IMG/VR virus record: IMGVR_UViG_3300025000_000129
Span: 1-55,321 of that record
Length of the DNA: 55,321 nt
Reading direction: 5' to 3' (one strand)
Origin: a virus
Lineage: Duplodnaviria > Caudoviricetes
The notes under the pieces were generated by a model. The model did not search any database, had not been told where the DNA came from, and was given only the letters and a program-made list of their open reading frames with translations. The position numbers and the translations under genes were made by a program. The first letter of the stretch is position 1; each line of letters begins with the position of its first letter. Positions 3,492-37,461 of this stretch are shown in pieces.

Positions 3492-3515
3492 TTTGGAATA
3501 TCTTGTTATTGCGAA
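3492..3515 (-). repeat. Putative recombinase site, 3' class: TTCGCAAT-AACAAGAT-ATTCCAAA
   Basis: Starts immediately after the TAA of 3516..3653; imperfect inverted arms around an 8-bp spacer. Confidence 0.7.
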
Positions 3516-3653
3516 TTAAAAATCGCCCTCTATAATCGCTTGTTCTCTGTCAAATTTATGTTCACAATCCTCACAAACAAAAAGTTCCTCATCACTATCA
3601 CTAACAAAACAAACACTTTCGCTCGAGCATTTGGGGCATATAACTTTAAGCAT
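3516..3653 (-). CDS. Small Zn-ribbon protein (cassette A1)
   Basis: MLKVICPKC...CEDC with GGAG RBS; trimmed from ORF 3516..3731. Confidence 0.6.
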   Translation of the reverse strand: MLKVICPKCSSESVCFVSDSDEELFVCEDCEHKFDREQAIIEGDF

Positions 3654-3825
3654 TTCTTTTATCTCCTTCACATATTTTTTTTTCAAACTTATCGCAAGCC
3701 ATTGTTTTCTTACAAACCTTGTAATATCCACTGTCTTTACATGTACACTTCAATATTTCTTCAAAAACGATTGATGAATACTGAACTGCATGCTTGCATT
3801 CACCGCACTTACTATGGTTTGACAT
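3646..3825 (-). CDS. Small Cys-rich protein, 59 aa, not in ORF track (cassette A1)
   Basis: Read manually: MSNHSKCGECKHAVQ...CDKFEKKICEGDKRNA; AGGAAG RBS. Confidence 0.55.
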   Translation of the reverse strand: MSNHSKCGECKHAVQYSSIVFEEILKCTCKDSGYYKVCKKTMACDKFEKKICEGDKRNA

Positions 3826-3837
3826 GTTGTCTCTTCC

Positions 3838-3877
3838 TTCGCATAATTTTATAAATGGTCTTTCCTTTTATTGCGCA
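3838..3877 (-). repeat. Compound putative recombinase site (3' site TGCGCAAT-AAAAGGAA-AGACCATT sharing an arm with 5' site AGACCATT-TATAAAAT-TATGCGAA)
   Basis: Fills the gap between the stop of 3879..4241 and the RBS of the next gene. Confidence 0.6.
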
Positions 3878-3878
3878 A

Positions 3879-4241
3879 TCAGGCATATGGCTGAATACTC
3901 ACAGTAATAACCTTTTCCCATTCGTAGGCATCAACTTTTGCTTTCGCCAATATATCAAGATTAACTTCATCGGAACAGCTACCTTCTCGCACTATCTCAT
4001 CCATTGCCTCTTCAACCAGTTCGTCATAGTCATTTGACTTACTGTACATACGTTCCCCGCCTTCATAGCACCATATTTCATTTATCTCTGGCATTCCCCA
4101 GCTTGCTATCCAGTAGCTAAAATCATCACTTGAAATACACTCGGTATCAACCATTGGCATAATCCTCAAATCTGGATTTGCCTGTACTAACTCAATAAAC
4201 TTTTTTATGTTTTCCTGTTGAACTTCCATTTCAGTTCTCAT
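3879..4241 (-). CDS. Hypothetical acidic phage protein (cassette A2)
   Basis: ORF track, RBS GGGAG. Confidence 0.75.
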   Translation of the reverse strand: MRTEMEVQQENIKKFIELVQANPDLRIMPMVDTECISSDDFSYWIASWGMPEINEIWCYEGGERMYSKSNDYDELVEEAMDEIVREGSCSDEVNLDILAKAKVDAYEWEKVITVSIQPYA

Positions 4242-4260
4242 AAATATACTCCCTTCATTC

Positions 4261-4284
4261 TTCGTATTGTTTATAAAGTTTGAA
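4261..4284 (-). repeat. Putative recombinase site, 5' class: TTCAAACT-TTATAAAC-AATACGAA
   Basis: Just upstream of the RBS of 3879..4241; inverted arms, TTATAAAn spacer. Confidence 0.65.
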
Positions 4285-4288
4285 CCTG

Positions 4289-5257
4289 TTATGCTGTTTC
4301 CTTTGCCTTGATTACCCTGTCAAGATACCACTGGGCTTTGCGAAGATCCTCAAGTCCGCCTTTATAACGATACCTGGATAAATACTTAAGCGCATTACCT
4401 ACGCAGAATCCCTCGAACATTTCTGTCGGCATTTTGTCCTGCAGGTAATCAATAACCTCTATTGTGCCTGTGGTATAATGCTTTGGATGATTAATGTTAT
4501 CAGCAGCTACCATCTCCATCATCTCGTCAACCTCAGCAGCTGTGTCGATCTTCTTTATTGATTCCTTGGCCTTTTGAACGACAGCTTCATTTGCTACACC
4601 TGCAATACCTGCAATCTCTGGATATTCCTCTGTTTCAATAACCGTTTCCACATGCTCTTCGTGGCTGTTGATGTCAGAAATCGCAAATTCATCCGCAATC
4701 ACTATATCCGTATTTGTTCCAATTAACTTTTCCTTCTTCACACCCTGTTTCTTCCCATTCAGCAACATTGTCACCTTTGCCATAATCATGCTCATTTTCA
4801 TTGCCGGATACGATTCTGCAAACTGTTCCGCTATCTCTTTTACCGTCATCCCTCTGCCCGTCATTTCCTTTACCGCTTCTTTCGTCATCTTACTCATTTC
4901 TTCACCCTCACCTTTCTTCTTCATCAAGTTTCTATAACAGGCAGCTCCCGTGCCTTTCCTGTACTCTTCCATACTGCAGCTTGTCTCTTCCCGTTCAACC
5001 TTCATCACGTCCACCATCGGCTTAAACCGTATTTCTATACTATCTTCCAACTGCAATCTATACCTGCGTTGCCTCAGGTCGATAATGTTTATTGTTTCAA
5101 TGTATCCGGTGTCCTTCCGCAGTCTGAGCATACGATCAGTGATTGCTTCCACAGAGAAGAGACCTATTCTTCGATAGCCACCGGGTTTACTTGTGGTACC
5201 TTTTTTGAATTTTAAAAGAAAAACCTTCGTTCCAACCTGTAAATCATTAGCGTTCAA
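4289..5257 (-). CDS. Protein with C-terminal DUF3310 (SaV-like) domain
   Basis: DNINHPKHYT.G.IEVIDY...GNALKYLSRY..KGG.EDL.KA.WYL signature; a possible internal start at MSKMTKE. Confidence 0.8.
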   Translation of the reverse strand: MNANDLQVGTKVFLLKFKKGTTSKPGGYRRIGLFSVEAITDRMLRLRKDTGYIETINIIDLRQRRYRLQLEDSIEIRFKPMVDVMKVEREETSCSMEEYRKGTGAACYRNLMKKKGEGEEMSKMTKEAVKEMTGRGMTVKEIAEQFAESYPAMKMSMIMAKVTMLLNGKKQGVKKEKLIGTNTDIVIADEFAISDINSHEEHVETVIETEEYPEIAGIAGVANEAVVQKAKESIKKIDTAAEVDEMMEMVAADNINHPKHYTTGTIEVIDYLQDKMPTEMFEGFCVGNALKYLSRYRYKGGLEDLRKAQWYLDRVIKAKETA

Positions 5258-5292
5258 TAAAATTCACCTCACTTTTGTACATTTAATCTCAC

Positions 5293-5745
5293 CTAAAATC
5301 TTGCTTGCCGCGCTTTGGTTATAGCCTTGTTAAATCTGTTTAACGAAAGCATCGGCATTATACATTGTGCCTGAATGTATGCATTGTTAAAATCCGGGCC
5401 TTCAGCGTCACATTTATGCTTTGCATACTCCAAGCCACTAAATATTAAACACCCCTTTGCGTCGCCTGGAGGGTTGTTGTCTAAATATCTAGCTTTTTCA
5501 ATACCAGTTTCGTCTTTTTCCAAACTGCCTTTTATTTCCACGTACCATTGTCGTTCAGGAAGATAAAAGTCTGGCAAATACCACCCGTATTCACCTAAAT
5601 CATAACCTTCAGGCTCGTACTCATATTCAATATTCAGTTCATCAAACAATACTGCCCATCTTGCTTCCAATCTGCTCCTAAAAAGATAACCATTGTACTG
5701 CGTTTGAATTGGTTTGATATCCATGCCCGTTTTCCTCTCTTTCAA
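5293..5745 (-). CDS. PD-(D/E)XK nuclease-family phage protein
   Basis: Y.GY.FRSRLEARWA..F...YEYEPEG...YLPDFYL...VEIKG. Confidence 0.8.
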   Translation of the reverse strand: MKERKTGMDIKPIQTQYNGYLFRSRLEARWAVLFDELNIEYEYEPEGYDLGEYGWYLPDFYLPERQWYVEIKGSLEKDETGIEKARYLDNNPPGDAKGCLIFSGLEYAKHKCDAEGPDFNNAYIQAQCIMPMLSLNRFNKAITKARQARF

Positions 5746-5750
5746 AATTT

Positions 5751-5957
5751 AGCTGTCACTCACCTCTAAGCCTTGATATATCTATCTTTAAACACTATTA
5801 TTTATTTCTTTGTGACAGCTGTGACAGCTAAAAGTAAAGAATACTATAGAAAGTAATATATAGGAAAAACTTTGAGATTAGGTGTCACAGCTGTCACTTT
5901 GTCTTAAATAAACTGCCCGAAGAGCCTGCCACAACCACATTACGAATGGTGACAGCT
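5751..5957. repeat. Putative replication origin with GTGACAGCT iterons in both orientations around AT-rich spacers
   Basis: AGCTGTCAC 5751 and 5889; GTGACAGCT 5812, 5821 and 5949; partial GGTGTCAC 5881; non-coding and downstream of the primase-helicase. Confidence 0.75.
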
Positions 5958-5961
5958 GAAT

Positions 5962-6330
5962 TCATTTCCAATCTGCAAATATGTTATGCATCAATGTTTC
6001 TCTGTTCATTTTTGGTTTGTATTTCTTAATTAATTTTAATTCATACTGACCATTTGTTAAGTTGCATGGTATTGCATTACAGTCAATAAACGAAAACCAT
6101 GAAACCGTACTGATAAAATCTTTTGTCTGAGGTTCTGTTCGACGCCTATGCTGTTGTAATCGAAGCTTTATATCAATCGATTTCCCGATATAAAGCAATT
6201 CCTTATTCGAGCCAAATAGAAAATAAATACCGGACTTTTGCCCAATTTTCTTCAAATTCTCTTTGGTAAACTCGGTTGTTTTCAGACCAACCATAACATC
6301 ATCAATCTCTTTAGTAACCATACATTGCAC
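5962..6330 (-). CDS. GIY-YIG nuclease domain protein
   Basis: SGIYFLF...LLYIGKS.DI..RL.QH...E..LI....P.MN. Confidence 0.85.
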   Translation of the reverse strand: MQCMVTKEIDDVMVGLKTTEFTKENLKKIGQKSGIYFLFGSNKELLYIGKSIDIKLRLQQHRRRTEPQTKDFISTVSWFSFIDCNAIPCNLTNGQYELKLIKKYKPKMNRETLMHNIFADWK

Positions 6331-6334
6331 TCCT

Positions 6335-8836
6335 TTATAATTTTGACCTCGTATATTTATCTAAGCCATCATCATCAATCCCATCGAGCACACTGCCTTG
6401 AGATGATTCGTATTTGTATTTGCTTGACCTATATTTACTGAAGCTGGCTGTGCTGGAATTTTCAATTAACCTTAACCCCCTCCACACACTCCCGCTGTTG
6501 GTGCGTTTTTTTTCAAATCCTTTCAGTGCTAATTCATCTGCAAAGTCTCTTGATCTCCTGACATAGCTTTCATTATTTGCAGCACACCAATTCTTGTAAG
6601 ACTCGAACAGATTTCCCCCTGTTTCCTCATACTCTCCCATTTCGCAGCATTCAAGAATAAAATTGCTTATCCAGTCCTCAGCATTTTTATACATATCTGT
6701 GGCTGTCTTGACAGATTCAGGTGCTATAATATTACAGCCGTTCGCAATGTATTTACTTGCCCCATCCACAATCCAGGAAAGAATAGCGTCACCATCTTCA
6801 TTGAATAGCACACTGGCATAATCTTTAATTTCTTTCTTACCATCGAATACTGCTTTGAATGGCACCACCGCAATTCTTCTCCAAGTACCTGCATCGGTAC
6901 TACCAACTTTAGGCAAATGATTTGTGGCGAAAATGAGCGTATGCCCGGGAATGAAGCTTCTCTGATTTTGATACATCTTTTTTTCAATTACCGGTGCCGT
7001 AGAAGACAATTTTTTAAGCACTTTAGAGGAAAGCCTTTTACCTTCCTCGCTTTCTTCAGCCCAAACAAATCTTTTGCCCTCAACGGAAATAGCGCCATTG
7101 CTCATTTGCTTACCATCTCGCTGCACCATTAAATCATCAGCATCTATGGTGCAGGCGTAATCTCCAAAAATTTTGTCCATACAGTTAAGAAAAGTTGTCT
7201 TGCCGTTCCTGCCTCCACCGTAGAATATACACATGCCTTCATAAAATACTTTTCCTATTGCCGCCATTCCGCACACCTGCTGAAAATAGTCTGCTAATTC
7301 ATCATCGTTACAGGTAATGTCCTTTAAAAATTGGTCAAACTTATTCATTGATTTCCCTGGAACATAGTTTGCATTAGCAATTTTGCTCATCTTATAGTTA
7401 GGATTGTGGGGTAATAATCGCTTTGTTCGAAGGTCGATTACGCCATTCTGGCAATTAAGCAAAAAGGCATCTGTATCTAGCTCGGATGCAGTTATTGGCA
7501 AATCTGACTTTGCAAGCTCTATCATAGCCTTTATACTCTTTTCGCTCTTGCCCTTGATGGTTTCTTTAAATTTTTGCTTTGCCATTTTTACCTGCTCTTC
7601 TCCTGCGGCATTTCCAACTTCCCTGGCGGCAATTGCAATCATTTCAGCGACGGTGTCTTTAGCCATGTTAACAACCTCCAACACTTCATCTGCTTTCCAG
7701 ATTTTTTGTTTCCACATCAGCCAGCTTTTTGTTTGAGCGCACCATAATAATTGACCTTTGTACTTTAAAGAAAACACCTTGCTTCGGCCTAGGTCACTGG
7801 TTGTATCCTCTGGAGGTTTTTCAACTACGCTACTAACAAGTGCATCAAGTCCATTATCAAATTCTGGTACTTCCTCCGGTATCTTATTTCTCCTTGGAAC
7901 GTGCGGAGTGTAAAAACTATTACACCCACTTATAGCCTCATCGATAGTCATTTGTGCATATGTTTTAGCGCCGCGTCTTTCGTCCCATTTTGGCCGCATC
8001 AGGCCTGATTGTCTGAACATCCTATCGATTGTAGTAAAGATCCCGCCAGAGTAAAATGCGAGCTTATTACAAAGTGATAGGTCTGCTTCGTTTTGTGATT
8101 TAAAGTAAGGCTTCCAGTTTCCATCAAACAAAGCACCAAATTTTGAACCTTCGTCTTCGTCCAAAATCTTATCAATTATTTCATCATCAGAAAGATAGCC
8201 TCCGCTAACAAAAACCGGCATTTCGTTAACGTTTTTAGTGGTTTTTGCATCGTTTTTGCCTGTTTTTTTAACATTTATGTACCTTTCGTGCACTGAAGCC
8301 AGTTCACCCGTCCGCTCCTCAATTGAGGTATGGGCATCATCCAGCGTATTCCCAGTTACAATAAAATACCTACCTGTGGAGTACATTTCCAAATCATCCT
8401 TGCGCCTGCCGCCCTCCGGTAGTTTGCCAGAGCAGATAATATGTATCCCGTTCCCGCTCTGACTATACTCTGTGTAGCTGTCCAGTGTGGCAATAATATC
8501 CTTCGCCCTCTCCGTCAGCTGCCCGTCTTCTCTGCAGTGATCTATGTCCACACCAACTATCCCATCACCGTTGAACATAAAGCCTATGCCGCAGACAGCA
8601 ATGTCCTTTATACTTCCCCTGACAGCTGCCTCAACTGCATCCTGATAAGTACCCCAGGTAGCAGGGTTATTGCTCATAGCCCTGCCACCAGTAGCGGGAT
8701 TAATCGGCATTTTTGCAGGATTATCAGGAGTCCCGTCCTTGTTAAAACGTTCCTCCCACCTCCAGCAAACCCACCTGTCCAACTCTTTTAATTCCCTTGG
8801 TATGTTGTCAAAGTTATTACGATTGTCAAAGTTCAT
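6335..8836 (-). CDS. Primase-polymerase / D5-like SF3 helicase (P4-family primase)
   Basis: N-terminal AEP motifs (GVDIDHC, EYSQSGNGIH), D5_N region, Walker A GGGRNGKTT, ATNHLP, WRR. Confidence 0.92.
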   Translation of the reverse strand: MNFDNRNNFDNIPRELKELDRWVCWRWEERFNKDGTPDNPAKMPINPATGGRAMSNNPATWGTYQDAVEAAVRGSIKDIAVCGIGFMFNGDGIVGVDIDHCREDGQLTERAKDIIATLDSYTEYSQSGNGIHIICSGKLPEGGRRKDDLEMYSTGRYFIVTGNTLDDAHTSIEERTGELASVHERYINVKKTGKNDAKTTKNVNEMPVFVSGGYLSDDEIIDKILDEDEGSKFGALFDGNWKPYFKSQNEADLSLCNKLAFYSGGIFTTIDRMFRQSGLMRPKWDERRGAKTYAQMTIDEAISGCNSFYTPHVPRRNKIPEEVPEFDNGLDALVSSVVEKPPEDTTSDLGRSKVFSLKYKGQLLWCAQTKSWLMWKQKIWKADEVLEVVNMAKDTVAEMIAIAAREVGNAAGEEQVKMAKQKFKETIKGKSEKSIKAMIELAKSDLPITASELDTDAFLLNCQNGVIDLRTKRLLPHNPNYKMSKIANANYVPGKSMNKFDQFLKDITCNDDELADYFQQVCGMAAIGKVFYEGMCIFYGGGRNGKTTFLNCMDKIFGDYACTIDADDLMVQRDGKQMSNGAISVEGKRFVWAEESEEGKRLSSKVLKKLSSTAPVIEKKMYQNQRSFIPGHTLIFATNHLPKVGSTDAGTWRRIAVVPFKAVFDGKKEIKDYASVLFNEDGDAILSWIVDGASKYIANGCNIIAPESVKTATDMYKNAEDWISNFILECCEMGEYEETGGNLFESYKNWCAANNESYVRRSRDFADELALKGFEKKRTNSGSVWRGLRLIENSSTASFSKYRSSKYKYESSQGSVLDGIDDDGLDKYTRSKL

Positions 8837-9151: not shown

Positions 9152-9160
9152 AATTTACAC

Positions 9161-9753: not shown

Positions 9754-9777
9754 TGCATATGGTCCTTCTAGCGCGAA
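9754..9777 (-). repeat. Putative recombinase site, 3' class: TTCGCGCT-AGAAGGAC-CATATGCA
   Basis: Begins immediately after the TAG of 9778..10023. Confidence 0.5.
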
Positions 9778-22138: not shown

Positions 22139-22441
22139 CGTGCTTCCCCTTTCATATAAACTTAGTTAAACTTTGTCTTTTGTGCTGCTTAGAGGTTACA
22201 AATGAAAAATAGAATAATTATCAGCCCGCTTTATTTGCCGGGCGCATGGGCATCACTTCCCTTCCTGCCCTATATCCACTATCCGCCCATTCCGGACGGT
22301 AAAATATGTGCCTGTTAGCCTGTACCAGGTTGCGAACCAGCGTATGTCGGTTTGCTCATTTAAAACTTTCGATTTTTCAAGTGGCATGTGATAATCTCCT
22401 TTGTGATGGTCTTAACCATTTCGTTGATGTCAACAATATGG

Positions 22442-22465
22442 TGCGGAATATCTTTTTATTACGCA
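22442..22465 (-). repeat. Putative recombinase site, 3' class: TGCGTAAT-AAAAAGAT-ATTCCGCA
   Basis: Immediately after the TAA of the PAPS-reductase gene; arms 7/8 inverted. Confidence 0.75.
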
Positions 22466-23599
22466 TTAACCCAATAAACTCATTTGACCTCTGATCTGGT
22501 CTTCGAATTCGCGCCGATGTTCGGCTTCCTTTTTCTGTTGTTTCAGCTTCTTGTACTCGTTATACTTCTGACGGTATCTATAGCTGTCACCGAAAACGTT
22601 CCAAGCAGCCTTTACTAAATTCGGCTCAAATGGACGTATTTTCTCCAAATCCTCTACTGCTCTTGCTGATATAGAGCAACCACAGCAGCCTGTCCGCTTA
22701 AGTCCATATACCTCATATGCATCTGAATATCTAATGTTGTAATAGTCTTTGTACCATTGCTTGTCAGCATCTGACACGTAATATAGTGGCCTAAGTCTAA
22801 ATTGTCCGTCAGCTGTTTCCGAGAAGCACATAGACGTACTGTCTTTACGTGGTACAGACCGCATTCCACCTTCGTCCCTGCGTTCGCCTGTGATTACCAT
22901 ATCAAAATCCTTTTGTGCTGCATGAGCCACATGTTTTTTACAGTAATCACAGCACTTGTTACTAACCTTAAAGGGGATTGGATTTTCTTTGATAAAGTCC
23001 AGCATATATTTTGAGGAGTTTATAACCAGTTGAATATCAGGTCTTGGTTCTCCCTTGGAATTGCAGCAGCATAGGAAATTAATCGTTGTTTCGCATCCCG
23101 GATATCGTTTTTTAAGTTCAGCGCGTTTTGCCGCCTTATCCTCTGCATTTGCGTATTCATCAGCTATTGTCAGTGGAATATTTTTCTTTTGCACTCCCTC
23201 CAACCCAGCCGACATAATCTTTGATACAAAAGGCTGTCCATGTTCCCTTGTGGCAAGCACAATGTTCTTTTTTGGTTTATGCTCGGTAATTGTAATTCCG
23301 TATAGCTCTTCCATCTTGCTTACATGACGCTTTATTGCTTCCATCTCCAATCCGGTGTTAAAAAAACAGTATTGTACCTGTGGAAGATTAAATGTTTTAC
23401 GTGCTGTTTCAATGAGATGCAGCATAATGTCGCTATCGCTGCCGCCAGAATAAGAGCAAATCGCATTCGGATATTCAATCAACCTTTTGGCTATGATGCT
23501 TTTTATTGCCTCAAATTTGCGCGGCGCTTCAAAATCTGCGTACGGTGGTCTGTCTGTGTATACTCTACTTTTAAATTCTGTGTTCTTATTGGATCCCAT
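22466..23599 (-). CDS. Phosphoadenosine phosphosulfate (PAPS) reductase-family protein (cassette C1)
   Basis: SYSGGSDS PP-loop, FNTGLE, KCC..KK, GERRDEGG.R, RTGCCGC. Confidence 0.88.
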   Translation of the reverse strand: MGSNKNTEFKSRVYTDRPPYADFEAPRKFEAIKSIIAKRLIEYPNAICSYSGGSDSDIMLHLIETARKTFNLPQVQYCFFNTGLEMEAIKRHVSKMEELYGITITEHKPKKNIVLATREHGQPFVSKIMSAGLEGVQKKNIPLTIADEYANAEDKAAKRAELKKRYPGCETTINFLCCCNSKGEPRPDIQLVINSSKYMLDFIKENPIPFKVSNKCCDYCKKHVAHAAQKDFDMVITGERRDEGGMRSVPRKDSTSMCFSETADGQFRLRPLYYVSDADKQWYKDYYNIRYSDAYEVYGLKRTGCCGCSISARAVEDLEKIRPFEPNLVKAAWNVFGDSYRYRQKYNEYKKLKQQKKEAEHRREFEDQIRGQMSLLG

Positions 23600-23618
23600 A
23601 CCAAACCTCACTTTTTAT

Positions 23619-23659
23619 TGTGCAATATTTATAAATTTGGATTTTCTTGTTATTACAAA
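23619..23659 (-). repeat. Compound putative recombinase site (3' TTTGTAAT-AACAAGAA-AATCCAAA overlapping 5' ATCCAAAT-TTATAAAT-ATTGCACA)
   Basis: Fills the gap between the TAG of 23660..24214 and the RBS of the PAPS gene. Confidence 0.7.
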
Positions 23660-24214
23660 CTAAACAATATCCCAGTCAGTCTTCTCAAGTATTTCAAAAA
23701 GCTTTGAAACTTGCGGGCTTCTCCATGCCGTCATTGCGTAAGAATGAACTGTATCGTTATAGTGGTGCTTATTGTTTTGAATATGCTCTTTACACTCTCT
23801 ATTAGTGAGAAACATTGTATCTTGTACTATCTCTTCTCTGTTTCTGTAATTGCAGATTGAATATTGTCCAGAAGCGTATTCTTCAAGAAAGTCTTTGATT
23901 TCTGAAATGTCTGTTATAAAATATTCGTTTCCATCTTCGCAGAATATTTCAAGAAAACCGTTGTGGCATTCGCATTTTGTAATTATGTCAAACTCTTTCT
24001 TTATCCAGTCTGCTATATTTTCTATAACCCCTTCAAATACGCTTTCGGCTGCACTGGTATCATAAATGCAAATGCCATCTATGTTATCATCAACCCAATA
24101 ATCTTTAACGGTTTGCATAACTACCCAAAACCTTGGATTTGCTTGGCATACAGTATCTTGGGTTATCATTTCGTGTTGCAAGTTTTTTAAAAATTCTTTG
24201 TCTTCCTGATTCAT
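23660..24214 (-). CDS. Hypothetical phage protein (cassette C2)
   Basis: QD...QA.PRFWV...MFLT..E.K.HI..N.HHY....HSYAMTAWRSP conserved-looking phage family. Confidence 0.8.
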   Translation of the reverse strand: MNQEDKEFLKNLQHEMITQDTVCQANPRFWVVMQTVKDYWVDDNIDGICIYDTSAAESVFEGVIENIADWIKKEFDIITKCECHNGFLEIFCEDGNEYFITDISEIKDFLEEYASGQYSICNYRNREEIVQDTMFLTNRECKEHIQNNKHHYNDTVHSYAMTAWRSPQVSKLFEILEKTDWDIV

Positions 24215-24231: not shown

Positions 24232-24255
24232 TTCGCCCTCTTTATAAACTCCGTC
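24232..24255 (-). repeat. Putative recombinase site, 5' class: GACGGAGT-TTATAAAG-AGGGCGAA
   Basis: Between the TAG of 24256..24801 and the RBS of 23660..24214. Confidence 0.6.
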
Positions 24256-24801
24256 CTACTCCACCTCCCACACTTCCAGCCATACCCTTCCAAACTCATT
24301 GCAACTTTTAGCACTTTTCATGTACAAATCCAACCGCCCCTCTGTAATGTCCTTACCGCAATCCATCACCGTGAAAACTCTGTCAAAGTAGGGGATATAC
24401 AACCGTGTGCCTATCGGATACTCTTTCAGCCATGCCGCAACATATCCGTTCTGCACATACTTACCTGATGCTGTTATGCCATATGTGGGGTCGCTCGGCT
24501 TCTTGCTGCAGGAACCTTCCCAATAGGCGGTACATTCCATTATGCGGCGGTTGCGCTCTGTACCTCTGCTTGTCTTGTCCTGTCCAAGCCGTTCCTGTGC
24601 CTCTTTTAACTGTGCCGATAATTCATCAACTTGCTTCATATACTGCCAGCATTTGGCGTGCAGGCTGTCTAGTTCGGTCTGTAGCGTGGTGTTTTGCTGT
24701 TGTGCGGCGTATAGTTCGTTTTCTGTTGTGATTAGGCTTATAAAAGTGTATAGGGTGACGATTAGGGCGATTATGTAAACAAATATTAATTTAGGTTTCA
24801 T
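24256..24801 (-). CDS. Membrane-anchored coiled-coil plus 3D (Asp-Asp-Asp) domain lytic-transglycosylase-like protein
   Basis: N-terminal TM; TAY...YGITASG...P.GT...V.DCG...RLDLY. Confidence 0.85.
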   Translation of the reverse strand: MKPKLIFVYIIALIVTLYTFISLITTENELYAAQQQNTTLQTELDSLHAKCWQYMKQVDELSAQLKEAQERLGQDKTSRGTERNRRIMECTAYWEGSCSKKPSDPTYGITASGKYVQNGYVAAWLKEYPIGTRLYIPYFDRVFTVMDCGKDITEGRLDLYMKSAKSCNEFGRVWLEVWEVE

Positions 24802-32103: not shown

Positions 32104-32161
32104 TTGTAAAATGTAAAATAATGCTATAATATTGAAGTAAAAGTTGAAAGGTACTGTTATT

Positions 32162-32908: not shown

Positions 32909-33025
32909 AGGAAAATAGTTGATTTTTGTAAAATTATGTTATATTATGTAATTACTCTATAAACTTGTTTTTATATGACCCGCCCGGTTGTCCGCCGGGT
33001 TATTTTTTTATGATATAATATTCCT

Positions 33026-33235: not shown

Positions 33236-33299
33236 TAAAAAGCACAAAAAAATAAACCCCTCTTTCGAGGGGCAAGGAGGAAGGCCGGAGGTCAACCTG

Positions 33300-33632
33300 C
33301 TATCGTAAATTCTGAGAGTTATCAACTTTACCGTTATCCAAATAGTCCTTTGCTAATGTATACCATTCCTGTAACTTTTCTCTTATGCTCCTGGGAGAGA
33401 CAAACAGCCTGAGCCATGCCGGGACTAGATCAAAATATAGCTTCTCGAATACCGCTTCAAACTTCTTTTGCCCTTCACCGTCTGCAAATATCCGTTCCGC
33501 TGCGAGCATTAAGGCATAAGCCTGTTCGCGGAGTTTTGTCCACTGCTTAGTGATAACGAGGTAAATGTCATACCCCACAAACAGCATCAACAGCAGTATT
33601 ACTAACCAATTTGCCATAAAAAATTCCTTCAT
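33300..33632 (-). CDS. Holin-like membrane protein (LL-H type)
   Basis: N-terminal TM; AE...G.G.KK; follows endolysin. Confidence 0.65.
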   Translation of the reverse strand: MKEFFMANWLVILLLMLFVGYDIYLVITKQWTKLREQAYALMLAAERIFADGEGQKKFEAVFEKLYFDLVPAWLRLFVSPRSIREKLQEWYTLAKDYLDNGKVDNSQNLR

Positions 33633-33641
33633 TTCTTCACC

Positions 33642-34334
33642 TTATCCTTTCTTTATATAGTCAACCGTTTTACGTATTAACCAATAAATGTCCTTATCTA
33701 CCAATCCCTTTTTAACCCACTTTGCAACATCGACCACGATGCCTTTATTATTTAAGCATTCCACAAGCTCCTGTATGGTCGGCTCTGTTGCAACATATGT
33801 TATGTATGGCAGCTTCCCGTGCTTCACCCACATACGGTTATTCATACTAGGATTCGTGCCGATATTTTGACAGGCGGATACTTGCACCTTGTTGTCCCAT
33901 TTAGGTGTACATTCAATTACCTTACCGACACCGATATATATACCGATATGTCCAGGCATCCAGACAGCTTCCCCGATCTCAATGCCTGCAAAGTTTGTTG
34001 ATACACCAGAGCATTTAGCAATCATACCGTCAGCATTTATGTCAGGAACGCCACTAGATTTATATTTTGCTCCGCCGTATGTCTTAGTCAGATTGCCAGA
34101 CCAACCCCACAAGATACCTTTAATTACATTTACGCAGTCAAATGCAAAATAGCCCTTATCAATCAACTTGCGGAGCTCTGTTTGCTTTGCTGTCGTGTAC
34201 CAGGATGGCAGCTGCTTTGTTTTATTGGCGATCAGCGTTTCTGTCACAGGAGCGCCAAAGCAGCCTAACATGTATACAGTTTTGTAATTGTCAATAATGT
34301 CCTGCAACTTTTCAACCAGTTCTTTATTGGTCAA
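33642..34334 (-). CDS. Endolysin, NlpC/P60-like amidase/peptidase
   Basis: FDCVN.IKGILWGW catalytic Cys; GHIGIYIG.G.VIECT; TTG start with GGAGG RBS. Confidence 0.85.
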   Translation of the reverse strand: MTNKELVEKLQDIIDNYKTVYMLGCFGAPVTETLIANKTKQLPSWYTTAKQTELRKLIDKGYFAFDCVNVIKGILWGWSGNLTKTYGGAKYKSSGVPDINADGMIAKCSGVSTNFAGIEIGEAVWMPGHIGIYIGVGKVIECTPKWDNKVQVSACQNIGTNPSMNNRMWVKHGKLPYITYVATEPTIQELVECLNNKGIVVDVAKWVKKGLVDKDIYWLIRKTVDYIKKG

Positions 34335-34812
34335 TATTCTCCTCCTCCTTTTCCAATGCTTCATTACTTTTCTTCTTCACCCAAAATAATAGTGGTTTTA
34401 GGTAATCAGCTCCGGCATCAATTAAATTTTCAATATTGCTGGCAAACTCTCTAAAAAACAGAAATGAATATACCACTGTAGCTACAATATTGCTGATATA
34501 CGGTATGTCCACAAGCCTCATGGAGAGACCGGCGAGGATTTGGATTACCAGATAGGCTATTATTTTATCCCTTGTCTTTGCGTACATAGCCTGAGAGTTC
34601 CACGCCTTACTAATAAAAGCTTTCCGGATTCCGCCGGATTTCTTGAAAATAACGTACCACCTGGTTAAGCAGTCCAGCACCACTGCAATCCATAAGGCTG
34701 CTGTCCATGCTATAAAGGATTCCTCCGGCAGTATAAGCCATGTGCCGCACGCCCAAATTAAGGCGGTAACCGGCTTGACCGTTTCCAATACCTTGTAAAA
34801 CAGTTCATTCAT
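34324..34812 (-). CDS. Phage holin (holin_4_1 family)
   Basis: Multiple TMs; LD.LT, E..SNIENL..AG. Confidence 0.85.
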   Translation of the reverse strand: MNELFYKVLETVKPVTALIWACGTWLILPEESFIAWTAALWIAVVLDCLTRWYVIFKKSGGIRKAFISKAWNSQAMYAKTRDKIIAYLVIQILAGLSMRLVDIPYISNIVATVVYSFLFFREFASNIENLIDAGADYLKPLLFWVKKKSNEALEKEEENIDQ

Positions 34813-34890
34813 CTTGCACCTCCCGTATTTTTATTGTAAAATTATGTGACCTTCCCTTGATGGCTCCCGCAGCTTGGGGGAAGGTATGAA

Positions 34891-34924
34891 AAAGCCCCGT
34901 TGGATTACAGTCCTTAGGGGCTTT
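34891..34924. terminator. Terminator after the recombinase gene
   Basis: AAAGCCCC...GGGGCTTT. Confidence 0.65.
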
Positions 34925-34929
34925 AGGAT

Positions 34930-35919
34930 TTATGCTATGTTTTTCCTATGAATCATTTGTATATCTTCCTTATCCATTTGTGCGTAAATTTGAGTCGTTA
35001 CTGGGCTTTCATGGCCGAGCAACCTTTGCACCGCTGCCAGGCTTGCACCATTTCTAAGTAGGTTCGTTGCCATGGTATGCCTTAAAATATGAGGGTGAAT
35101 GTTCTTGGAGATACCGGCCCTGACGCCCAATTCTTTTATGATATCCTCAAAAGATTTTCCGCTTAGCCGATTATGTGGAAGCTTGCTGGCCACAAATAAC
35201 CCAGAGTTTGAATCGGTTCTCGTCTGAAGATAGTTTTTGAGAAATAGAATGGCTCTCGCACTGATATAAACCTCTCTTTCCTTGCTACCTTTTCCGATCA
35301 CAACACATGACTTATTTATCCAGTTGATATCATCACGATTCAATTTGTGCACCTCATCCAAACGGCAACCAGTAGAGTAAAAGAATTCAATGATAGCTTT
35401 TTCTCTTTCTGTTTTGCATGCATAGCGCAATAGCTCCAACTCTTCATCGGTGAGGGCTTTTCTCAAACTTTTCTTTACCTTTGTAGATTTGATATTCCAC
35501 ATTGGATTCTTCGGGATATAATCTTGGCCTGTCATCCACGAAAAGAACGATTTCAAAGTAGTAACAACCGTTGAAAGTGTGCTGTTCTGAATACCGGTTT
35601 GAGAATAATGCGCTAGGTACATCCGGATATCAATATCTGTTATCGCATCAACGTCCTTGCAAACAATCGTTGAAAACCTATTCAGTATGAGGAAATAGTT
35701 TTTGATTGTTTTTGGTGACATGCCGTCTATCCTTCTGGCGGCCAGATATAATCCAACTCTACTTGGTAGATTGTGTCGCAGAGCTAATGCAGTACATTCT
35801 GCTGTAATCGTGCAATGCTGCATTTCCTCTTGCATAATCAGCTGTAGTTTTCTAACTGTTTCCATATCCAGAAAACCTGAAGCCCTGTCCAACACCTTGA
35901 TAATAATTTCTTCTCTCAA
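34930..35919 (-). CDS. XerC/D-like tyrosine recombinase (second recombinase, without an arm-binding domain)
   Basis: SAM-like N-domain (G.S.KTI..Y); TGCRLDEV, GKGSKER, HILRHTMAT, LGH....TTQIY. Confidence 0.95.
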   Translation of the reverse strand: MREEIIIKVLDRASGFLDMETVRKLQLIMQEEMQHCTITAECTALALRHNLPSRVGLYLAARRIDGMSPKTIKNYFLILNRFSTIVCKDVDAITDIDIRMYLAHYSQTGIQNSTLSTVVTTLKSFFSWMTGQDYIPKNPMWNIKSTKVKKSLRKALTDEELELLRYACKTEREKAIIEFFYSTGCRLDEVHKLNRDDINWINKSCVVIGKGSKEREVYISARAILFLKNYLQTRTDSNSGLFVASKLPHNRLSGKSFEDIIKELGVRAGISKNIHPHILRHTMATNLLRNGASLAAVQRLLGHESPVTTQIYAQMDKEDIQMIHRKNIA

Positions 35920-35934
35920 TTAAAACGCCTCCTA

Positions 35935-36039
35935 TTGATACACAGGAGGCATAATGTTATAATGTTTATGCAAAGCACTTACCCCCCTGTGTAGGGGTCT
36001 GTGTGAAGGAGTTTCCGGTTGGCGCCGGGGGCTCCTTTT
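35935..36039 (+). ncRNA. Antisense sRNA (~70 nt, ~35970-36039) to the recombinase leader, with promoter and terminator
   Basis: TTGATA(35935)-17bp-TATAAT(35958) with extended TG; hairpin ACCCC..GGGGT; terminator AAGGAG..CCGG-TTGGCG-CCGG..CTCCTTTT. Confidence 0.7.
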
Positions 36040-36147
36040 GCTATATATAGATTTATAGCGGTAGACCTTACAAATATTGTATAGTATTCATGGGTCTATA
36101 GCTATAAGACGCATGGACTATTTGCATAGGACTTAGGGCCTAGTTAC

Positions 36148-36171
36148 GTTAACATTTTATCCTATTGCGAA
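36148..36171 (-). repeat. Putative recombinase site, 3' class: TTCGCAAT-AGGATAAA-ATGTTAAC
   Basis: Immediately after the TAA of 36172..37461; the 13-mer TATTGCGAATTAA is identical to 3507-3519. Confidence 0.7.
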
Positions 36172-37461
36172 TTAATCTAAGTTATATTCCTCATAAGCAT
36201 CGTCACTTACTGATAGCCCATCAATATAAATTGTGCGTGATGTTGCTCCGCTAAGTACTATCATTTCTGCAAATAGTGTAGCACCTATAGAGCCTTTTGG
36301 AGCAACAAACGTGCCAGTAAACCTTTGATAGCTTGTCGTTAAAGCTGTTTCTGTGTGTGTTAATTCAACTACGCTTAATGGATTACCTTCTCTTATCGCT
36401 CCGCCAGTTTTTATTGTTATTTTACTTCTAGTGTTCGCATCTCCGTCACCTTTTGCCCACCATGTAACACGATAAGTCTTACCGCCTTCAATATTTATAG
36501 CTCTTTGAGTTTGCTCGGCAGGAGTTATACCAACACCGTCCCAAATTAGTCTGATAGTATATGTATCCACAAATGGGGATATTGTAGTGAGTCCAGATGA
36601 ACCCTGTCTGCTTCCGGTTTCTACCCACCCCGAACCTATACCTATGCTACCTTCGTGGAGTAAATTATGTTTTTTTATGACTTTCCCAGGGTCAACAACA
36701 GGTATTTTCATATCGTTAAAATATTTCATCACTCGTTGATAACTTGCTACATCAATACCCCATACATCAGCGGTGTCACTAATGTTATGGAATAATATTG
36801 GTACATGATAACCCAATCTCAAAGCATCGAGCAAGGCTTTGCAAAAATTATTAAATCGTGTATCAGTCATTCCGTTGGCATCAACATTCCTAAATTCAAG
36901 ACTTGATGTTACAGCAAACCTAGTTTGCCCAGGCACTGTACCACTTACTGAGTTAGCGTCTTGCATGTCCCTAATATATGGGTGCAGTAAATACGCATAT
37001 TTTCTGGCCGCTTGCGAATATCCATGTCCCGGAGCAATAAAAGGTATTTCGGTGTTTGGGTTATTTGGTGCTTTCACCGCTGGATTTTGCAGTCCAAAAC
37101 CCCAAGTATAACGTAGAGTTTTATATGCCGCTTCAATTGCGGCTTTAGCTGTTGCATCGGTAGCGCCAAGATCATGTGTTTTGGAGTGATTCCCGATTAT
37201 CCACAAGCCCGAGTCATACATCTCTGTAAGCTGTGCCAATGTTAAAAAGCCTGCTGTGTTTATCCAGTCAGTGACAATACAGGCCACGCCAAGATAACCA
37301 TATTTGATATGCTCGGGGTGTGCATATGTATGCCAACCAGCAAATCCATCATCATACCAAAGTGATATGCTGCCACCGCCTATATAGTTCTGTTTCTTCG
37401 CAATTGATGCCAAGTTTGCGGTATTTTCCTTTATCTTTTTCCTTGCATATCCGTCCGTCAT
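36172..37461 (-). CDS. Polysaccharide deacetylase (NodB) plus CBM4/9-like protein with short N-terminal leader; probable virion/tail-associated
   Basis: SLWYDDG, GNHSKTH, ILFHNI; C-terminal GKTYRVTWWAK...YQRFTGTFVAP...IYIDGLSV. Confidence 0.8.
   Translation of the reverse strand: MTDGYARKKIKENTANLASIAKKQNYIGGGSISLWYDDGFAGWHTYAHPEHIKYGYLGVACIVTDWINTAGFLTLAQLTEMYDSGLWIIGNHSKTHDLGATDATAKAAIEAAYKTLRYTWGFGLQNPAVKAPNNPNTEIPFIAPGHGYSQAARKYAYLLHPYIRDMQDANSVSGTVPGQTRFAVTSSLEFRNVDANGMTDTRFNNFCKALLDALRLGYHVPILFHNISDTADVWGIDVASYQRVMKYFNDMKIPVVDPGKVIKKHNLLHEGSIGIGSGWVETGSRQGSSGLTTISPFVDTYTIRLIWDGVGITPAEQTQRAINIEGGKTYRVTWWAKGDGDANTRSKITIKTGGAIREGNPLSVVELTHTETALTTSYQRFTGTFVAPKGSIGATLFAEMIVLSGATSRTIYIDGLSVSDDAYEEYNLD
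37397..37420 (-). repeat. Putative recombinase site, 5' class, inside the coding sequence: CGCAAACT-TGGCATCA-ATTGCGAA (encodes ANLASIA)
   Basis: Inner arm is the exact inverted copy of 36164-36171. Confidence 0.7.

What the first reader, a model, noticed from the sequence alone, without database searches (positions are those of the whole stretch)
3492..37420. Genome-wide family of heterospecific 8-8-8 recombination sites bracketing gene cassettes: candidate phage cassette-exchange system driven by the XerC/D-like recombinase
Seen in sequence (minus strand): six 3' sites start 0-1 nt after a stop codon. They are TTCGCAAT-AACAAGAT-ATTCCAAA (3492-3515), TGCGCAAT-AAAAGGAA-AGACCATT (3854-3877), TTCGCGCT-AGAAGGAC-CATATGCA (9754-9777), TGCGTAAT-AAAAAGAT-ATTCCGCA (22442-22465), TTTGTAAT-AACAAGAA-AATCCAAA (23636-23659) and TTCGCAAT-AGGATAAA-ATGTTAAC (36148-36171). 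Six 5' sites end just before an RBS or lie in frame. They are AGACCATT-TATAAAAT-TATGCGAA (3838-3861), TTCAAACT-TTATAAAC-AATACGAA (4261-4284), GCAGAATA-TAAAAAAT-AATGTGAA (10040-10063), ATCCAAAT-TTATAAAT-ATTGCACA (23619-23642), GACGGAGT-TTATAAAG-AGGGCGAA (24232-24255) and CGCAAACT-TGGCATCA-ATTGCGAA (37397-37420). The cassette-facing arms are best conserved. The 3' spacers are purine-rich and the early-region 5' spacers are TTATAAAn-like. Established: tyrosine recombinases (Cre, Flp, XerCD) use inverted arms around a 6-8 bp spacer and need spacer identity; two different spacers flanking a segment favour exchange over excision or inversion, as in engineered RMCE, and pdif modules and integron cassettes are natural analogues. 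Inference: the recombinase at 34930-35919, which is not needed for integration because int/attP exist, swaps or inserts promoterless accessory cassettes between co-resident phage genomes. I know of no description of such a system in Bacillota phages. Sites were found by eye and some are degenerate.
Basis: partly seen in the sequence, partly recalled or inferred. Interest (0 to 1): 0.92.

Follow-up and report, generated by a model that had tools for sequence, protein, structure and literature searches.

The report
Post-stop-codon repeat marking phage gene slots
Four of the twelve claimed sites are a real 24-base repeat that sits right after stop codons and borders swappable accessory genes in a small group of groundwater phages, but nothing ties it to the Xer-like recombinase, so it looks like an ordinary intergenic linker element and not a new cassette-exchange machine.

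Summary
All 12 claimed 24-mers are in the sequence as written. They are not one genome-wide family. The core arm TTCGCAAT is not enriched: 56 matches against 67 expected. PWMs built from the six 3' and six 5' sites find no further member at the training threshold.

Only four 3' sites (3492, 3854, 22442, 23636) form a true repeat, scoring 28-33 bits against 13.8 for the next best hit. It is a 24-nt imperfect dyad, TKYGYAAT-AAMAAGAW-AWTCCRMA. A PWM from these four finds 10 hits in seven other records. Nine of the 10 lie at an ORF stop, against 7% background.

At 22.3-24.3 kb the repeat and a TTTATAAA box border a slot that holds different genes in relatives G001, G006 and G007. The breakpoints scatter over about 27 nt. 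Two relatives keep only the right arm. Many other gene-boundary joints carry no motif.

All five motif-bearing relatives lack a homologue of the 329-aa recombinase. That recombinase is a self-contained moron.

Best reading: a PeSL-like intercistronic linker or regulatory element at module boundaries. Interest is low to moderate.

The parts
3492..3515 (-). 24-nt dyad repeat, copy w1, directly after the TAA stop of ORF 3516-3731 and followed by the RBS of ORF 3156-3476
   Evidence: 33.4 bits; leave-one-out rank 2 of 110,596; 6 of 8 arm positions complementary
3854..3877 (-). 24-nt repeat, copy w2, 1 nt after the TGA stop of ORF 3879-4241 and followed at once by TTTATAAA
   Evidence: 28.3 bits; leave-one-out rank 7; arms not complementary (2 of 8)
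22442..22465 (-). 24-nt repeat, copy w4, directly after the TAA stop of the PAPS-reductase-like gene; conserved at the same place in L011/G001, L077/G002 and L014/G003
   Evidence: 7 of 8 arm positions complementary
23636..23659 (-). 24-nt repeat, copy w5, directly after the TAG stop of ORF 23660-24214 and followed at once by TTTATAAA
   Evidence: absent from G001 together with its gene
24241..24248 (.). TTTATAAA box after the stop of the conserved 181-aa gene; point where the window, G001 copy 1 and G001 copy 2 diverge
23628..23635 (.). TTTATAAA box after copy w5; forms an 8-bp direct repeat with 24241-24248 around the gene 23660-24214 plus its repeat
4270..4277 (.). TTTATAAA box upstream of ORF 3879-4241, preceded by a right-arm-like GTTCAAAC
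3848..3855 (.). TTTATAAA box after copy w2; forms a direct repeat with 4270-4277 around ORF 3879-4241 plus its repeat
23660..24214 (-). 184-aa cargo gene (phrog_3205, unknown function); missing from G001 as one unit together with copy w5
22466..23611 (-). PAPS-reductase-like cargo gene (381 aa)
3879..4241 (-). 120-aa cargo gene bracketed by TTTATAAA boxes; no relative found for comparison
3516..3731 (-). 71-aa ORF followed by copy w1
24256..24801 (-). Conserved 181-aa gene forming the upstream flank of the variable slot (77-84% identity in G001, G006, G007)
22253..22387 (-). Conserved 44-aa gene X forming the downstream flank of the slot; preceded by the repeat or by its right arm plus CAAAGGAG in the window, G001 (two copies), G006 and G007
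22406..22441 (-). 36-nt insertion between copy w4 and the RBS of gene X. Contigs of runs X1 and X3 carry 9 other letters in place of 22392-22440, and G001 likewise lacks the insertion.
   Evidence: (table 5c)
34930..35919 (-). XerA/XerC/XerD-like tyrosine recombinase (329 aa) with a full R..K..HxxR..H..Y set; a self-contained moron, not linked to the repeat
   Evidence: absent from the motif-bearing relatives
36148..36171 (-). Claimed 3' site 6: not a member of the repeat family (leave-one-out rank 88), but it marks the left end of the homology between the window and G005 upstream of the recombinase gene
9754..9777 (-). Claimed 3' site 3: at background level (leave-one-out rank 102)
37397..37420 (-). 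Claimed 5' site 6 inside the fibre-like gene: at background level (leave-one-out rank 746)

Best explanation
The real feature is a short conserved intercistronic element of a small clade of temperate phages from groundwater metagenomes.

Anatomy (shown):
- It is a 24-nt imperfect dyad, TKYGYAAT-AAMAAGAW-AWTCCRMA.
- It fills the gap between a stop codon and the next gene's ribosome-binding site in the early operon.
- It is always in the direction of transcription.
- It is sometimes followed by a TTTATAAA box.
- It is repeated behind unrelated accessory genes.
- It lies at module boundaries where relatives carry different cargo.

Function and mechanism (inferred):
- It is a cis-acting expression signal. 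Whether it is a protein-binding site on DNA or a signal on the mRNA is unresolved.
- Because it is one of the few stretches shared between otherwise unrelated gene modules, ordinary homology- or microhomology-driven recombination between co-infecting relatives tends to join modules there. This is what is described for PeSL cassettes of T4-type phages.

The XerC/D-like recombinase is an independent moron with its own promoter-like box, leader and terminator. It has no demonstrable link to these sites.
For: - Four window copies stand far above background.
- A PWM from these four finds 10 hits of at least 16 bits in 7 other records. Nine of the 10 have an ORF stop within +/-6 nt and 7 of the 10 start directly after the stop. 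The background is 7.1% of positions. Eleven further hits of 12-16 bits were not evaluated.
- All hits that lie at a stop are on the coding strand.
- The slot between the 181-aa gene and gene X holds five different contents: the 184-aa gene plus PAPS reductase in the window, PAPS reductase in G001 copy 2, gene B in G001 copy 1, and other genes in G006 and G007. The divergence starts in the intergenic elements.
- In G001, sites 15120 and 60947 share the upstream gene, and sites 15120 and 57693 share the downstream gene, with the switch at the repeat.
- The composite of repeat plus TTTATAAA recurs in the window (twice) and in G006.
- No sigma-70-type promoter or terminator is called at the repeat on the coding strand.
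- PeSL precedent: abstracts of PMC2839356 and PMC4122927.
Against: - The function of the element is untested. RNA folds of the copies are no better than shuffles (z from -0.7 to +0.4), so an RNA hairpin is not supported by energy.
- The arms do covary (covariation score 0.251 against 0.127 +/- 0.037; 1 of 500 shuffles reaches it). A plain protein-binding site does not predict this.
- The shared stretches are only 8-24 nt, which is short for classical homologous recombination.
- The 8-bp TTTATAAA direct repeats around two single genes look like the footprint of a precise insertion.
- Only one locus could be compared with relatives. For the 3.4-4.3 kb pair no relative was found.
- The G001 record holds two syntenic early regions. 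Its 'two alleles' may therefore be two strains joined by assembly.
Confidence: 0.55

Rival explanations
1. The 329-aa XerC/D-like recombinase recombines heterospecific 8-8-8 sites (3' type and 5' type) and so exchanges promoterless cassettes between co-resident phages.
For: - The recombinase is intact, with the full catalytic set read and Pfam/NCBIfam matches.
- It is not needed for integration, because int (29600-30889) and an attP with a tRNA 3' fragment exist.
- Some breakpoints fall at the flagged sites.
Against: - In 5 of 5 motif-bearing relatives no homologue was found. A PF00589 scan finds exactly one tyrosine recombinase in each of G001, G003 and G006, and none in G002 and G007.
- Recombinase-bearing G004 and G005 have 0 motif hits of at least 12 bits, though both are fragments.
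- The 5' sites have no inverted arms, and no two spacers are identical within a class.
- Four of the 12 sites are at or near background.
- Breakpoints at the 5' site lie at 24241, 24232 and 24258 in three relatives.
Confidence: 0.03
2. The repeat, with TTTATAAA as the crossover core, is a true site-specific recombination site of cassette type. Functionally it would be like integron attC: a folded imperfect palindrome at the 3' end of each cassette. The recombinase would be another enzyme, either each phage's own integrase or a host Xer enzyme.
For: - The repeat sits at the 3' end of ORFs with a dyad whose arms covary.
- Twice in the window a single gene plus its repeat is flanked by 8-bp TTTATAAA direct repeats. 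One of these units is exactly absent from G001, with the junction in the shared TTTATAAA.
- G006 has the same composite of repeat plus TTTATAAA.
- G001, G003 and G006 each encode one tyrosine recombinase.
- attC sites have been reported in phage genomes (abstract of PMC9892861).
Against: - G006 and G007 carry only the right arm upstream of gene X.
- The G001 15120 repeat is not a chimera of the arms of its two partner alleles.
- Breakpoints are scattered.
- The elements are dispersed and do not form an array next to an integrase.
- No circular or strand-changing joint appears among the 15 listed contig joints. Contigs would hardly show such joints.
- The Xer-like protein scores 93.5 bits against a cut-off of 265 for integron integrase.
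- The arms are only 8 bp.
Confidence: 0.1
3. The repeat is purely a cis-regulatory site and plays no part in recombination. It could be an operator or stoperator-like roadblock for a phage DNA-binding protein, or an mRNA processing or translation signal. Junctions coincide with it only because selection keeps recombinants that join at gene boundaries.
For: - Many joints between related contigs lie at gene boundaries without any motif. Examples are 24813->26537 (the whole methyltransferase gene) and 27332->28082. Of the 15 listed joints, 12 touch no claimed site.
- Conserved non-coding islands without the motif also recur as alignment ends, for example 27984-28102 and 21804-21869.
- Copies have a uniform orientation with transcription, as stoperators do (abstract of PMC9283540 as seen in the listing).
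Against: - There is no copy in the repressor/early-promoter switch region 29200-29372; the best nearby hit is 7.6 bits inside a gene. This argues against a classic immunity operator.
- There are only 4 copies, against the numerous sites described for stoperators.
- The exact TTTATAAA duplication around single genes is not explained.
Confidence: 0.25
4. The four-site family is a chance product of A+T-rich intergenic composition.
For: A degenerate 21-nt pattern finds about 80 unrelated A-rich matches in metagenomes.
Against: The four copies score 28-33 bits against at most 13.8 elsewhere. They are recovered independently in relatives at stop codons: 9 of 10 hits against 7% background.
Confidence: 0.02

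Closest known systems
PeSL (promoter-early stem-loop) regulatory cassettes of T4-type phages (Arbiol et al. 2010, PMC2839356; Comeau et al. 2014, PMC4122927; abstracts read)
   Same: Both are short conserved intergenic motifs, repeated in the plastic part of the genome and flanking non-essential ORFs. Insertions, deletions and replacements between close relatives map to them.
   Different: PeSLs are composed of a strong sigma-70-like promoter plus a terminator stem-loop. Here no promoter or terminator is called on the coding strand, the element is only 24 nt, and there are few copies (4). Mini-circles were shown for PeSLs and could not be tested here.
Stoperators of cluster A mycobacteriophages (PMC9283540, PMC6550527; seen as search listing and start of abstracts only)
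   Same: Both are short asymmetric sites spread through the phage genome. The statement that stoperators lie in short intergenic gaps next to stop and start codons, oriented with transcription, is recalled and comes from no call.
   Different: Stoperators are numerous and match the operator at the early promoter. Here there are 4 copies and none in the switch region. No repressor binding has been tested.
Integron attC sites and cassettes, including those reported in phage genomes (PMC9892861, abstract read)
   Same: Both are imperfect palindromes at the 3' end of a promoterless ORF, with arm covariation rather than strict sequence conservation, and both show single-gene presence or absence.
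   Different: There is no integron integrase (93.5 bits against a cut-off of 265). There is no attI and no array. The element is 24 nt, whereas attC length is recalled as roughly 60-140 nt. Breakpoints are not at one fixed position.
Tyrosine-recombinase core sites (loxP, FRT, dif, pdif modules)
   Same: The 8-8-8 layout, with partly inverted arms in 3 of the 4 real copies.
   Different: The arms are shorter than the 11-13 bp recalled for lox, FRT and dif. The spacers are not identical. The supposed cognate recombinase does not co-occur. The 5' class has no inverted arms.

Membership tests
Tyrosine-recombinase core site (lox/FRT/dif type) | Two inverted recombinase-binding arms around a 6-8 bp crossover region | tested here: inconclusive
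   3 of 6 claimed 3' sites have at least 6 of 8 complementary arm positions (background 0.4%). The other three have 2-3. All six 5' sites have 2-5 of 8, which is background-like.
Tyrosine-recombinase core site (lox/FRT/dif type) | Identical crossover (spacer) sequence in the sites that recombine with each other | tested here: not met
   No two of the six 3' spacers and no two of the six 5' spacers are identical. Only the shifted 8-mer TTTATAAA is shared, by four 5'-side boxes.
Tyrosine-recombinase core site (lox/FRT/dif type) | Co-occurrence of the sites with the cognate recombinase | tested here: not met
   No homologue of the 329-aa recombinase was found in 5 of 5 motif-bearing relatives. 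There are 0 motif hits in the two recombinase-bearing fragments. Three of the five relatives are 60-73% complete, so absence is firm only for G001 (100%) and likely for G006 (terminal repeats).
Tyrosine-recombinase core site (lox/FRT/dif type) | Recombinant junctions at a fixed position inside the spacer, giving chimeric arms | tested here: not met
   5'-side breakpoints against the window lie at 24241 (G001), 24232 (G006) and 24258 (G007). G006 and G007 keep only a right arm. The G001 15120 repeat is not a chimera of the 60947 and 57693 arms.
Tyrosine-recombinase core site (lox/FRT/dif type) | Binding and strand exchange by the enzyme | not testable with these tools
   This needs EMSA and recombination assays.
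Integron (intI, attI, attC cassettes) | Integron-type integrase | tested here: not met
   TIGR02249 scores 93.5 bits against a cut-off of 265, and NF011946 scores 52.6 against 435. The best family is the XerA type, NF040815, at 235.9 bits against a cut-off of 220.
Integron (intI, attI, attC cassettes) | Array of cassettes, each ending in an attC, next to intI/attI | tested here: not met
   The copies lie in two pairs at 3.5-3.9 kb and 22.4-23.7 kb, which is 11-31 kb from the recombinase gene and 6-26 kb from int.
PeSL regulatory cassette | Sigma-70-like early promoter within the motif | tested here: not met
   No coding-strand promoter-like site is called at any of the four copies. A consensus scan is a weak test.
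PeSL regulatory cassette | Stem-loop that terminates transcription | tested here: not met
   No terminator-like site is called at the copies. Fold energies are not better than shuffles.
PeSL regulatory cassette | Indels and replacements between close relatives map to the motif | tested here: met
   Shown at the slot 22.3-24.3 kb and at three G001 sites. Only one window locus had comparators.
PeSL regulatory cassette | Mini-circles formed by exchange between neighbouring copies | not testable with these tools
   Only assembled contigs of the runs were available, and no such joint is listed.
Stoperator (repressor roadblock sites) | Many copies that match the operator of the early lytic promoter | tested here: not met
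   There are 4 copies. No hit above 7.6 bits lies near the switch region 29200-29372.
Stoperator (repressor roadblock sites) | One orientation relative to transcription, in short intergenic gaps | tested here: met
   4 of 4 window copies and 9 of 10 hits in relatives lie on the coding strand at a stop codon.

The most novel reading that the evidence does not exclude
The 24-nt covarying dyad at the 3' end of accessory ORFs, together with the palindromic TTTATAAA core that is duplicated around single genes, is a miniature attC-like cassette system of phage early regions. Circular [RBS-ORF-dyad] units would be inserted and excised at TTTATAAA by a recombinase that every member phage has (its integrase) or borrows from the host (Xer). 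The evidence does not exclude this. One exact single-gene indel has its junction in TTTATAAA. The same bracket appears twice in the window and once in G006. The arm covariation is beyond 499 of 500 shuffles.
Probability: 0.1. Interest if true: 0.8.

Novelty: new variant of a known kind. Interest (0 to 1): 0.3.

Why it matters
How unrelated accessory genes get into and out of the same slot in phage genomes is a long-standing question. Short conserved linker elements are one documented answer (PeSLs in T4-type phages). A second, structurally different linker in temperate phages from groundwater would extend that idea to another phage group. This one is a promoter-less 24-nt dyad placed exactly after stop codons. 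It would also give a concrete, testable boundary signal for finding swappable genes in metagenomic phage genomes.

The claim that would have been highly novel, a dedicated Xer-driven cassette-exchange machine, is not supported.

Tried and rejected
Sequence searches that found no true relative:
- The exact 18-mer of the repeat in viral contigs gave 4 loci, all unrelated coding matches.
- The degenerate 21-nt pattern in viral contigs gave 5 stretches, of which only the G001 record is a true relative.
- The same pattern in metagenome contigs gave 90 stretches, 80 examined. Eight of the 80 have a stop 0-1 nt before the match. The rest are A-rich chance matches.
- Megablast of 1-12000 and 20000-30000 against the phage collection gave no match.
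- The kinase 4289-5257 in viral contigs had no relative.
- The primase gave only one distant locus, L010 (43% identity), with no motif hit. The 3.4-4.3 kb pair therefore has no comparator.
- The recombinase in genome contigs had no close relative.

Functional readings tested and not supported:
- Promoter reading of the repeat plus TATAAA: the spacing from a TTG-like hexamer to TATAAA is 19 nt by my own count, and no coding-strand promoter is called.
- Stable RNA hairpin: not supported by energy.
- DnaA-box, IHF, Spo0A and LexA resemblances were considered from recalled consensus sequences only. None fits all copies, and none was tested with a tool.
- Tail-fibre inversion between the 8-bp TTCGCAAT copies at 36164 and 37397: the 8-mer is at chance level and there is no alternative ORF on the other strand.

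Other checks:
- Rfam found nothing in the whole window or in 21700-22500. ARAGORN found no tRNA.
- Contigs of runs X1 and X3 laid on 20500-40000 list no strand-changing joint and no circular cassette joint. The runs are assembled contigs, so this says nothing about rare forms.
- The joint 22457->37856 (one X3 contig, side 27) falls under the tool's own warning for short sides and was not used.
- Supplementary files of the papers were not opened. They may hold PeSL and attC site lists that bear on the comparisons.

Full report
WHAT THE WINDOW IS. The window is a whole IMG/VR virus record of 55,321 bp, rated 100% complete and linear.

Genes run almost entirely on the minus strand:
- Near 55 kb lies a 582-aa ORF (53002-54750). 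I take it to be the large terminase from its size and position only; it was not scanned.
- Tail genes follow, then a fibre-like protein with a carbohydrate-binding domain (36172-37461).
- Next are the 329-aa Xer-like tyrosine recombinase (34930-35919), a holin (34324-34812) and an endolysin-like gene (33642-34364).
- After some plus-strand cargo come the integrase (29600-30889, plus strand) and a small plus-strand HTH repressor-like gene (29373-29594).
- From 29.2 kb down to 1 lies the minus-strand early region: Rha, two DNA methyltransferases, a PAPS-reductase-like gene, a fused SbcD/SbcC-like protein, a helicase, SSB, a primase and a nucleotide kinase.

A tRNA 3' fragment (31044-31075) lies between two 25-nt direct repeats (30885-30909 and 31119-31143) just downstream of int.

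Runs that hold this DNA are labelled groundwater metagenome. The host is not known. The nearest named homologues of the recombinase are from Clostridia, about 48% identity.

CHECK OF THE OBSERVATION. All 12 24-mers are present exactly as written on the minus strand. They do not form one family.
- The best-conserved arm, TTCGCAAT, with up to one mismatch, occurs 56 times against 67.2 +/- 7.7 expected.
- PWMs built from the six 3' and the six 5' sites recover only their own training sites at the lowest training score: 6 hits in the window against 0.01-0.02 in resampled sequence. At 12 bits there are 3 and 6 non-training hits, against resample means of 2.1 and 4.0 total hits. There are no hidden further members, so 'genome-wide' does not hold.
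- Leave-one-out scoring separates the sites. Four 3' sites (3492, 3854, 22442, 23636) rank 2-7 of 110,596 windows. The sites at 9754 and 36148 rank 102 and 88. Five 5' sites rank 8-95. The in-frame site at 37397 ranks 746.
- A PWM from the four good sites scores them at 28.3-33.4 bits and nothing else in the window above 13.8.
- Three of these four have 6-7 of 8 complementary arm positions, against a background of 0.4% of windows. The 5' sites have 2-5 of 8, which is background-like. No two spacers within either class are identical.

THE REAL ELEMENT. The four copies define a 24-nt imperfect dyad, TKYGYAAT-AAMAAGAW-AWTCCRMA. To test it without circularity I scanned seven other records (G001-G007) with the PWM built from the window's four copies only.
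- Ten hits reach 16 bits. Eleven further hits of 12-16 bits in these records were not evaluated.
- Nine of the 10 have the stop of an ORF of at least 40 codons within +/-6 nt of the motif start. Seven of the 10 start directly after the stop triplet.
- The background for such a position is 7.1%.
- All nine lie on the coding strand.
- The copies follow unrelated genes. In the window these are a 71-aa ORF, a 120-aa ORF, the PAPS-reductase-like gene and a 184-aa gene of phrog_3205. In G001, G006 and G007 they follow other genes.
- Among 71 loci encoding PAPS-reductase homologues, three (L011, L014, L077) start with TTCGYAAT directly after the stop. The element is therefore confined to a narrow lineage.
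- Pattern scans of the viral and metagenome collections found only the G001 record as a further true carrier.

In ten aligned copies the two arms covary. The covariation score is 0.251 against 0.127 +/- 0.037, reached by 1 of 500 shuffles. Of all cells, 74% are paired against 65.5%. The tool warns that related sequences can exceed shuffles. RNA folding of five copies is no better than shuffled sequence, and only the 22442 copy adopts the expected hairpin. No promoter-like or terminator-like site is called on the coding strand at the copies.

THE 5' SIDE.
- It occurs 7 times against 2.7 expected; 1 of 100 shuffles reaches 7.
- Four copies lie in early intergenic gaps (3848, 4270, 23628, 24241). 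Two lie in the attP arm and one lies inside a gene.
- The 'arms' to its right (..GCGAA..ACGAA..GTGAA) run straight into GGAG-type ribosome-binding sites.
- The same layout, TTTATAAA followed 6-10 nt later by GAAGGAG, recurs upstream of other genes in G001 and G006.
- Twice in the window a single gene plus its 24-nt repeat is flanked by TTTATAAA on both sides (24241...23628 and 4270...3848). G006 has the same composite of repeat plus TTTATAAA.

DO BREAKPOINTS FALL AT THE SITES? Only the 22.3-24.3 kb locus has comparators. The upstream 181-aa gene (24256-24801) and the downstream 44-aa gene X (22253-22387) are conserved at 77-90% identity in G001 (two copies), G006 and G007. What lies between them differs:
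- the window has the 184-aa gene plus PAPS reductase;
- G001 copy 2 has PAPS reductase only;
- G001 copy 1 has a small gene B;
- G006 and G007 have other genes.

Against G001, the 184-aa gene and its repeat are missing as a unit. Both G001 copies and the window diverge immediately after the shared TTTATAAA.

Four observations weigh against a precise crossover:
- The 5' breakpoint against G006 lies 9 nt further on, at 24232. Against G007 it lies at the stop codon, 24258.
- Upstream of gene X, G006 and G007 keep only a right-arm-like stretch plus CAAAGGAG, with no left arm or spacer.
- In G001, sites 15120 and 60947 share the upstream gene, and sites 15120 and 57693 share the downstream gene. 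Yet the 15120 repeat has its own covarying arms (TGCGGAT../..ATCCGCA) and is not a left/right chimera of the other two.
- Contigs of related strains in two runs show many further joints at gene boundaries that carry no motif. One skips the whole methyltransferase gene (24813->26537); another is 27332->28082. Of the 15 listed joints, 12 touch no claimed site, and 5 more were not shown.

One caveat applies to G001. The record contains two syntenic early regions, 2.3-15.5 kb and 49-61 kb. Its two 'alleles' may be two strains joined by the assembly.

THE RECOMBINASE.
- The 329-aa protein has a full-length Phage_integrase domain and both SAM-like N-terminal domains.
- It passes the XerA-type NCBIfam model at 235.9 bits against a cut-off of 220. 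It fails the integron-integrase model at 93.5 bits against 265.
- It shows the R..K..HxxR..H..Y set in its sequence. The sequence is; the motif assignment is from my knowledge of the family.
- It is a self-contained unit with a TATAAAT box, a roughly 250-nt leader, a hairpin that pairs with the RBS (35927-35950) and a terminator (34889-34924).
That site is therefore probably the edge of this moron. It has no second copy in the window.

The decisive test is co-occurrence. No homologue of the recombinase was found in G001 (rated 100% complete), G006 (terminal repeats), G002, G003 or G007 (60-73% complete). A Pfam PF00589 scan finds exactly one tyrosine recombinase in each of G001, G003 and G006, and none in G002 and G007. 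The two fragments that carry the recombinase, G004 (5.5 kb) and G005 (20 kb), have no motif hit of 12 bits or more.

MOST LIKELY MECHANISM.
Shown:
- a lineage-specific 24-nt dyad placed between stop codon and RBS, oriented with transcription;
- its repetition behind unrelated accessory genes;
- its position at module boundaries.

Inferred:
- It is a cis-acting expression signal, acting on DNA or on mRNA.
- Like PeSLs of T4-type phages, it offers a short shared sequence at which otherwise unrelated modules are joined by general recombination. In T4-type phages, indels and replacements between close relatives map to small conserved regulatory cassettes, and exchanges between neighbouring cassettes yield mini-circles (abstracts of PMC2839356 and PMC4122927).
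- It differs from PeSLs in having neither promoter nor terminator.
- It resembles stoperators in position and orientation (PMC9283540, listing and start of abstract), but it has few copies and none at the switch region.

A site-specific, attC-like reading with another recombinase is not excluded. I put it at about 0.1. Its support is the covarying dyad, the 8-bp direct repeats around single genes and one exact single-gene indel. Integron components have been reported in phages (abstract of PMC9892861).

NOVELTY AND VERDICT. I searched the paper library with terms for intergenic repeats, mosaic prophages and recombination hotspots and for attC, bacteriophage genome, gene cassette and tyrosine recombinase. 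Neither listing showed a description of this element. The concept of linker repeats at mosaic boundaries is established. I rate the finding a new variant of a known kind and of low to moderate interest (0.3). The cassette-boundary idea is partly supported. The Xer-driven heterospecific exchange mechanism is not supported.

Noticed in passing
window 35960-35974 and 39344-39358: A perfect 15-nt inverted repeat. One arm lies 41 nt upstream of the Xer-like recombinase start. The other lies in codons 2-6 of the leader of a type IV pilin-like gene (38970-39362). Together they enclose 3.4 kb holding the fibre-like gene and two pilin-like genes. Any such repeat within 6 kb is expected about 0.18 times per window (7 of 40 resamples have at least one). 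This could be an invertible segment served by the recombinase. Contigs of X1 and X3 span both arms in the reference orientation only, and G005 does not conserve the arm.
   Followed up: partly
window 30885-31143: The attP region: a tRNA 3' fragment with CCA (31044-31075) between two 25-nt direct repeats (30885-30909 and 31119-31143). Two copies of TTTATAAA followed by GGTAA or CGGTAA lie in the arm. An X3 contig runs on into unlike sequence at 31076, which would be consistent with a host junction.
   Followed up: partly
window 34889-36147: The recombinase gene is a moron. It has a conserved TATAAAT box, a roughly 250-nt leader, a hairpin GCCTCCT...AGGAGGC that sequesters the RBS (35927-35950) before a TTG start, and an intrinsic terminator (34889-34924).
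   Followed up: partly
L008 / G004:343-1671: The 77%-identical homologue of the recombinase is split in two pieces (residues 1-283 and 275-329) by about 330 nt inserted at the place matching window 35081. The nature of the insert was not examined.
   Followed up: no
window 21847-21875 (-): A tRNA-like T-arm plus acceptor 3' end with CCA. ARAGORN and Rfam find nothing there. It lies at the edge of a 323-nt segment (21848-22170) that one X3 contig skips.
   Followed up: partly
window 5746-5961: A 216-nt non-coding gap with five GCTGTCAC/GTGACAGC repeats and a perfect 15-nt inverted repeat (5812/5883). It is a candidate origin or regulatory region between the early genes.
   Followed up: no
window 37917-38312 and 38970-39362: Two paralogous type IV pilin-like genes (phrog_3433 'pilin'). 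A GFTLIELI prepilin motif is seen in the 38970-39362 copy, and the 37917-38312 copy shares an 83%-identical 29-nt stretch at that place. Both lie between the tail and fibre-like genes.
   Followed up: no
window 14836-18639: A single 1267-aa ORF matches SbcD (N-terminal 256 aa) and SbcC/Rad50 (rest). It is a fused nuclease-ATPase in the early region.
   Followed up: no
window 2858-2876, 3150-3168, 3476-3494: Three copies of a 19-nt leader (minus strand AAACAGAGGATAAGAGGGG-like) precede three consecutive small genes. The third copy directly follows repeat copy w1.
   Followed up: no
G001 (L086-L089) 2291-15471 and 48982-61128: The 61-kb record rated 100% complete contains two syntenic, mosaic-related early regions (73-92% identity in patches, plus one 41-nt identical stretch). 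It is either two related phages in tandem or two strains joined by assembly.
   Followed up: partly
window 24791-26533: The 580-aa DNA methyltransferase gene is skipped as a whole by related contigs (joints 24813->26537 and 24818->26553) and is absent from G001. There is no 24-nt repeat or TTTATAAA at its borders.
   Followed up: partly
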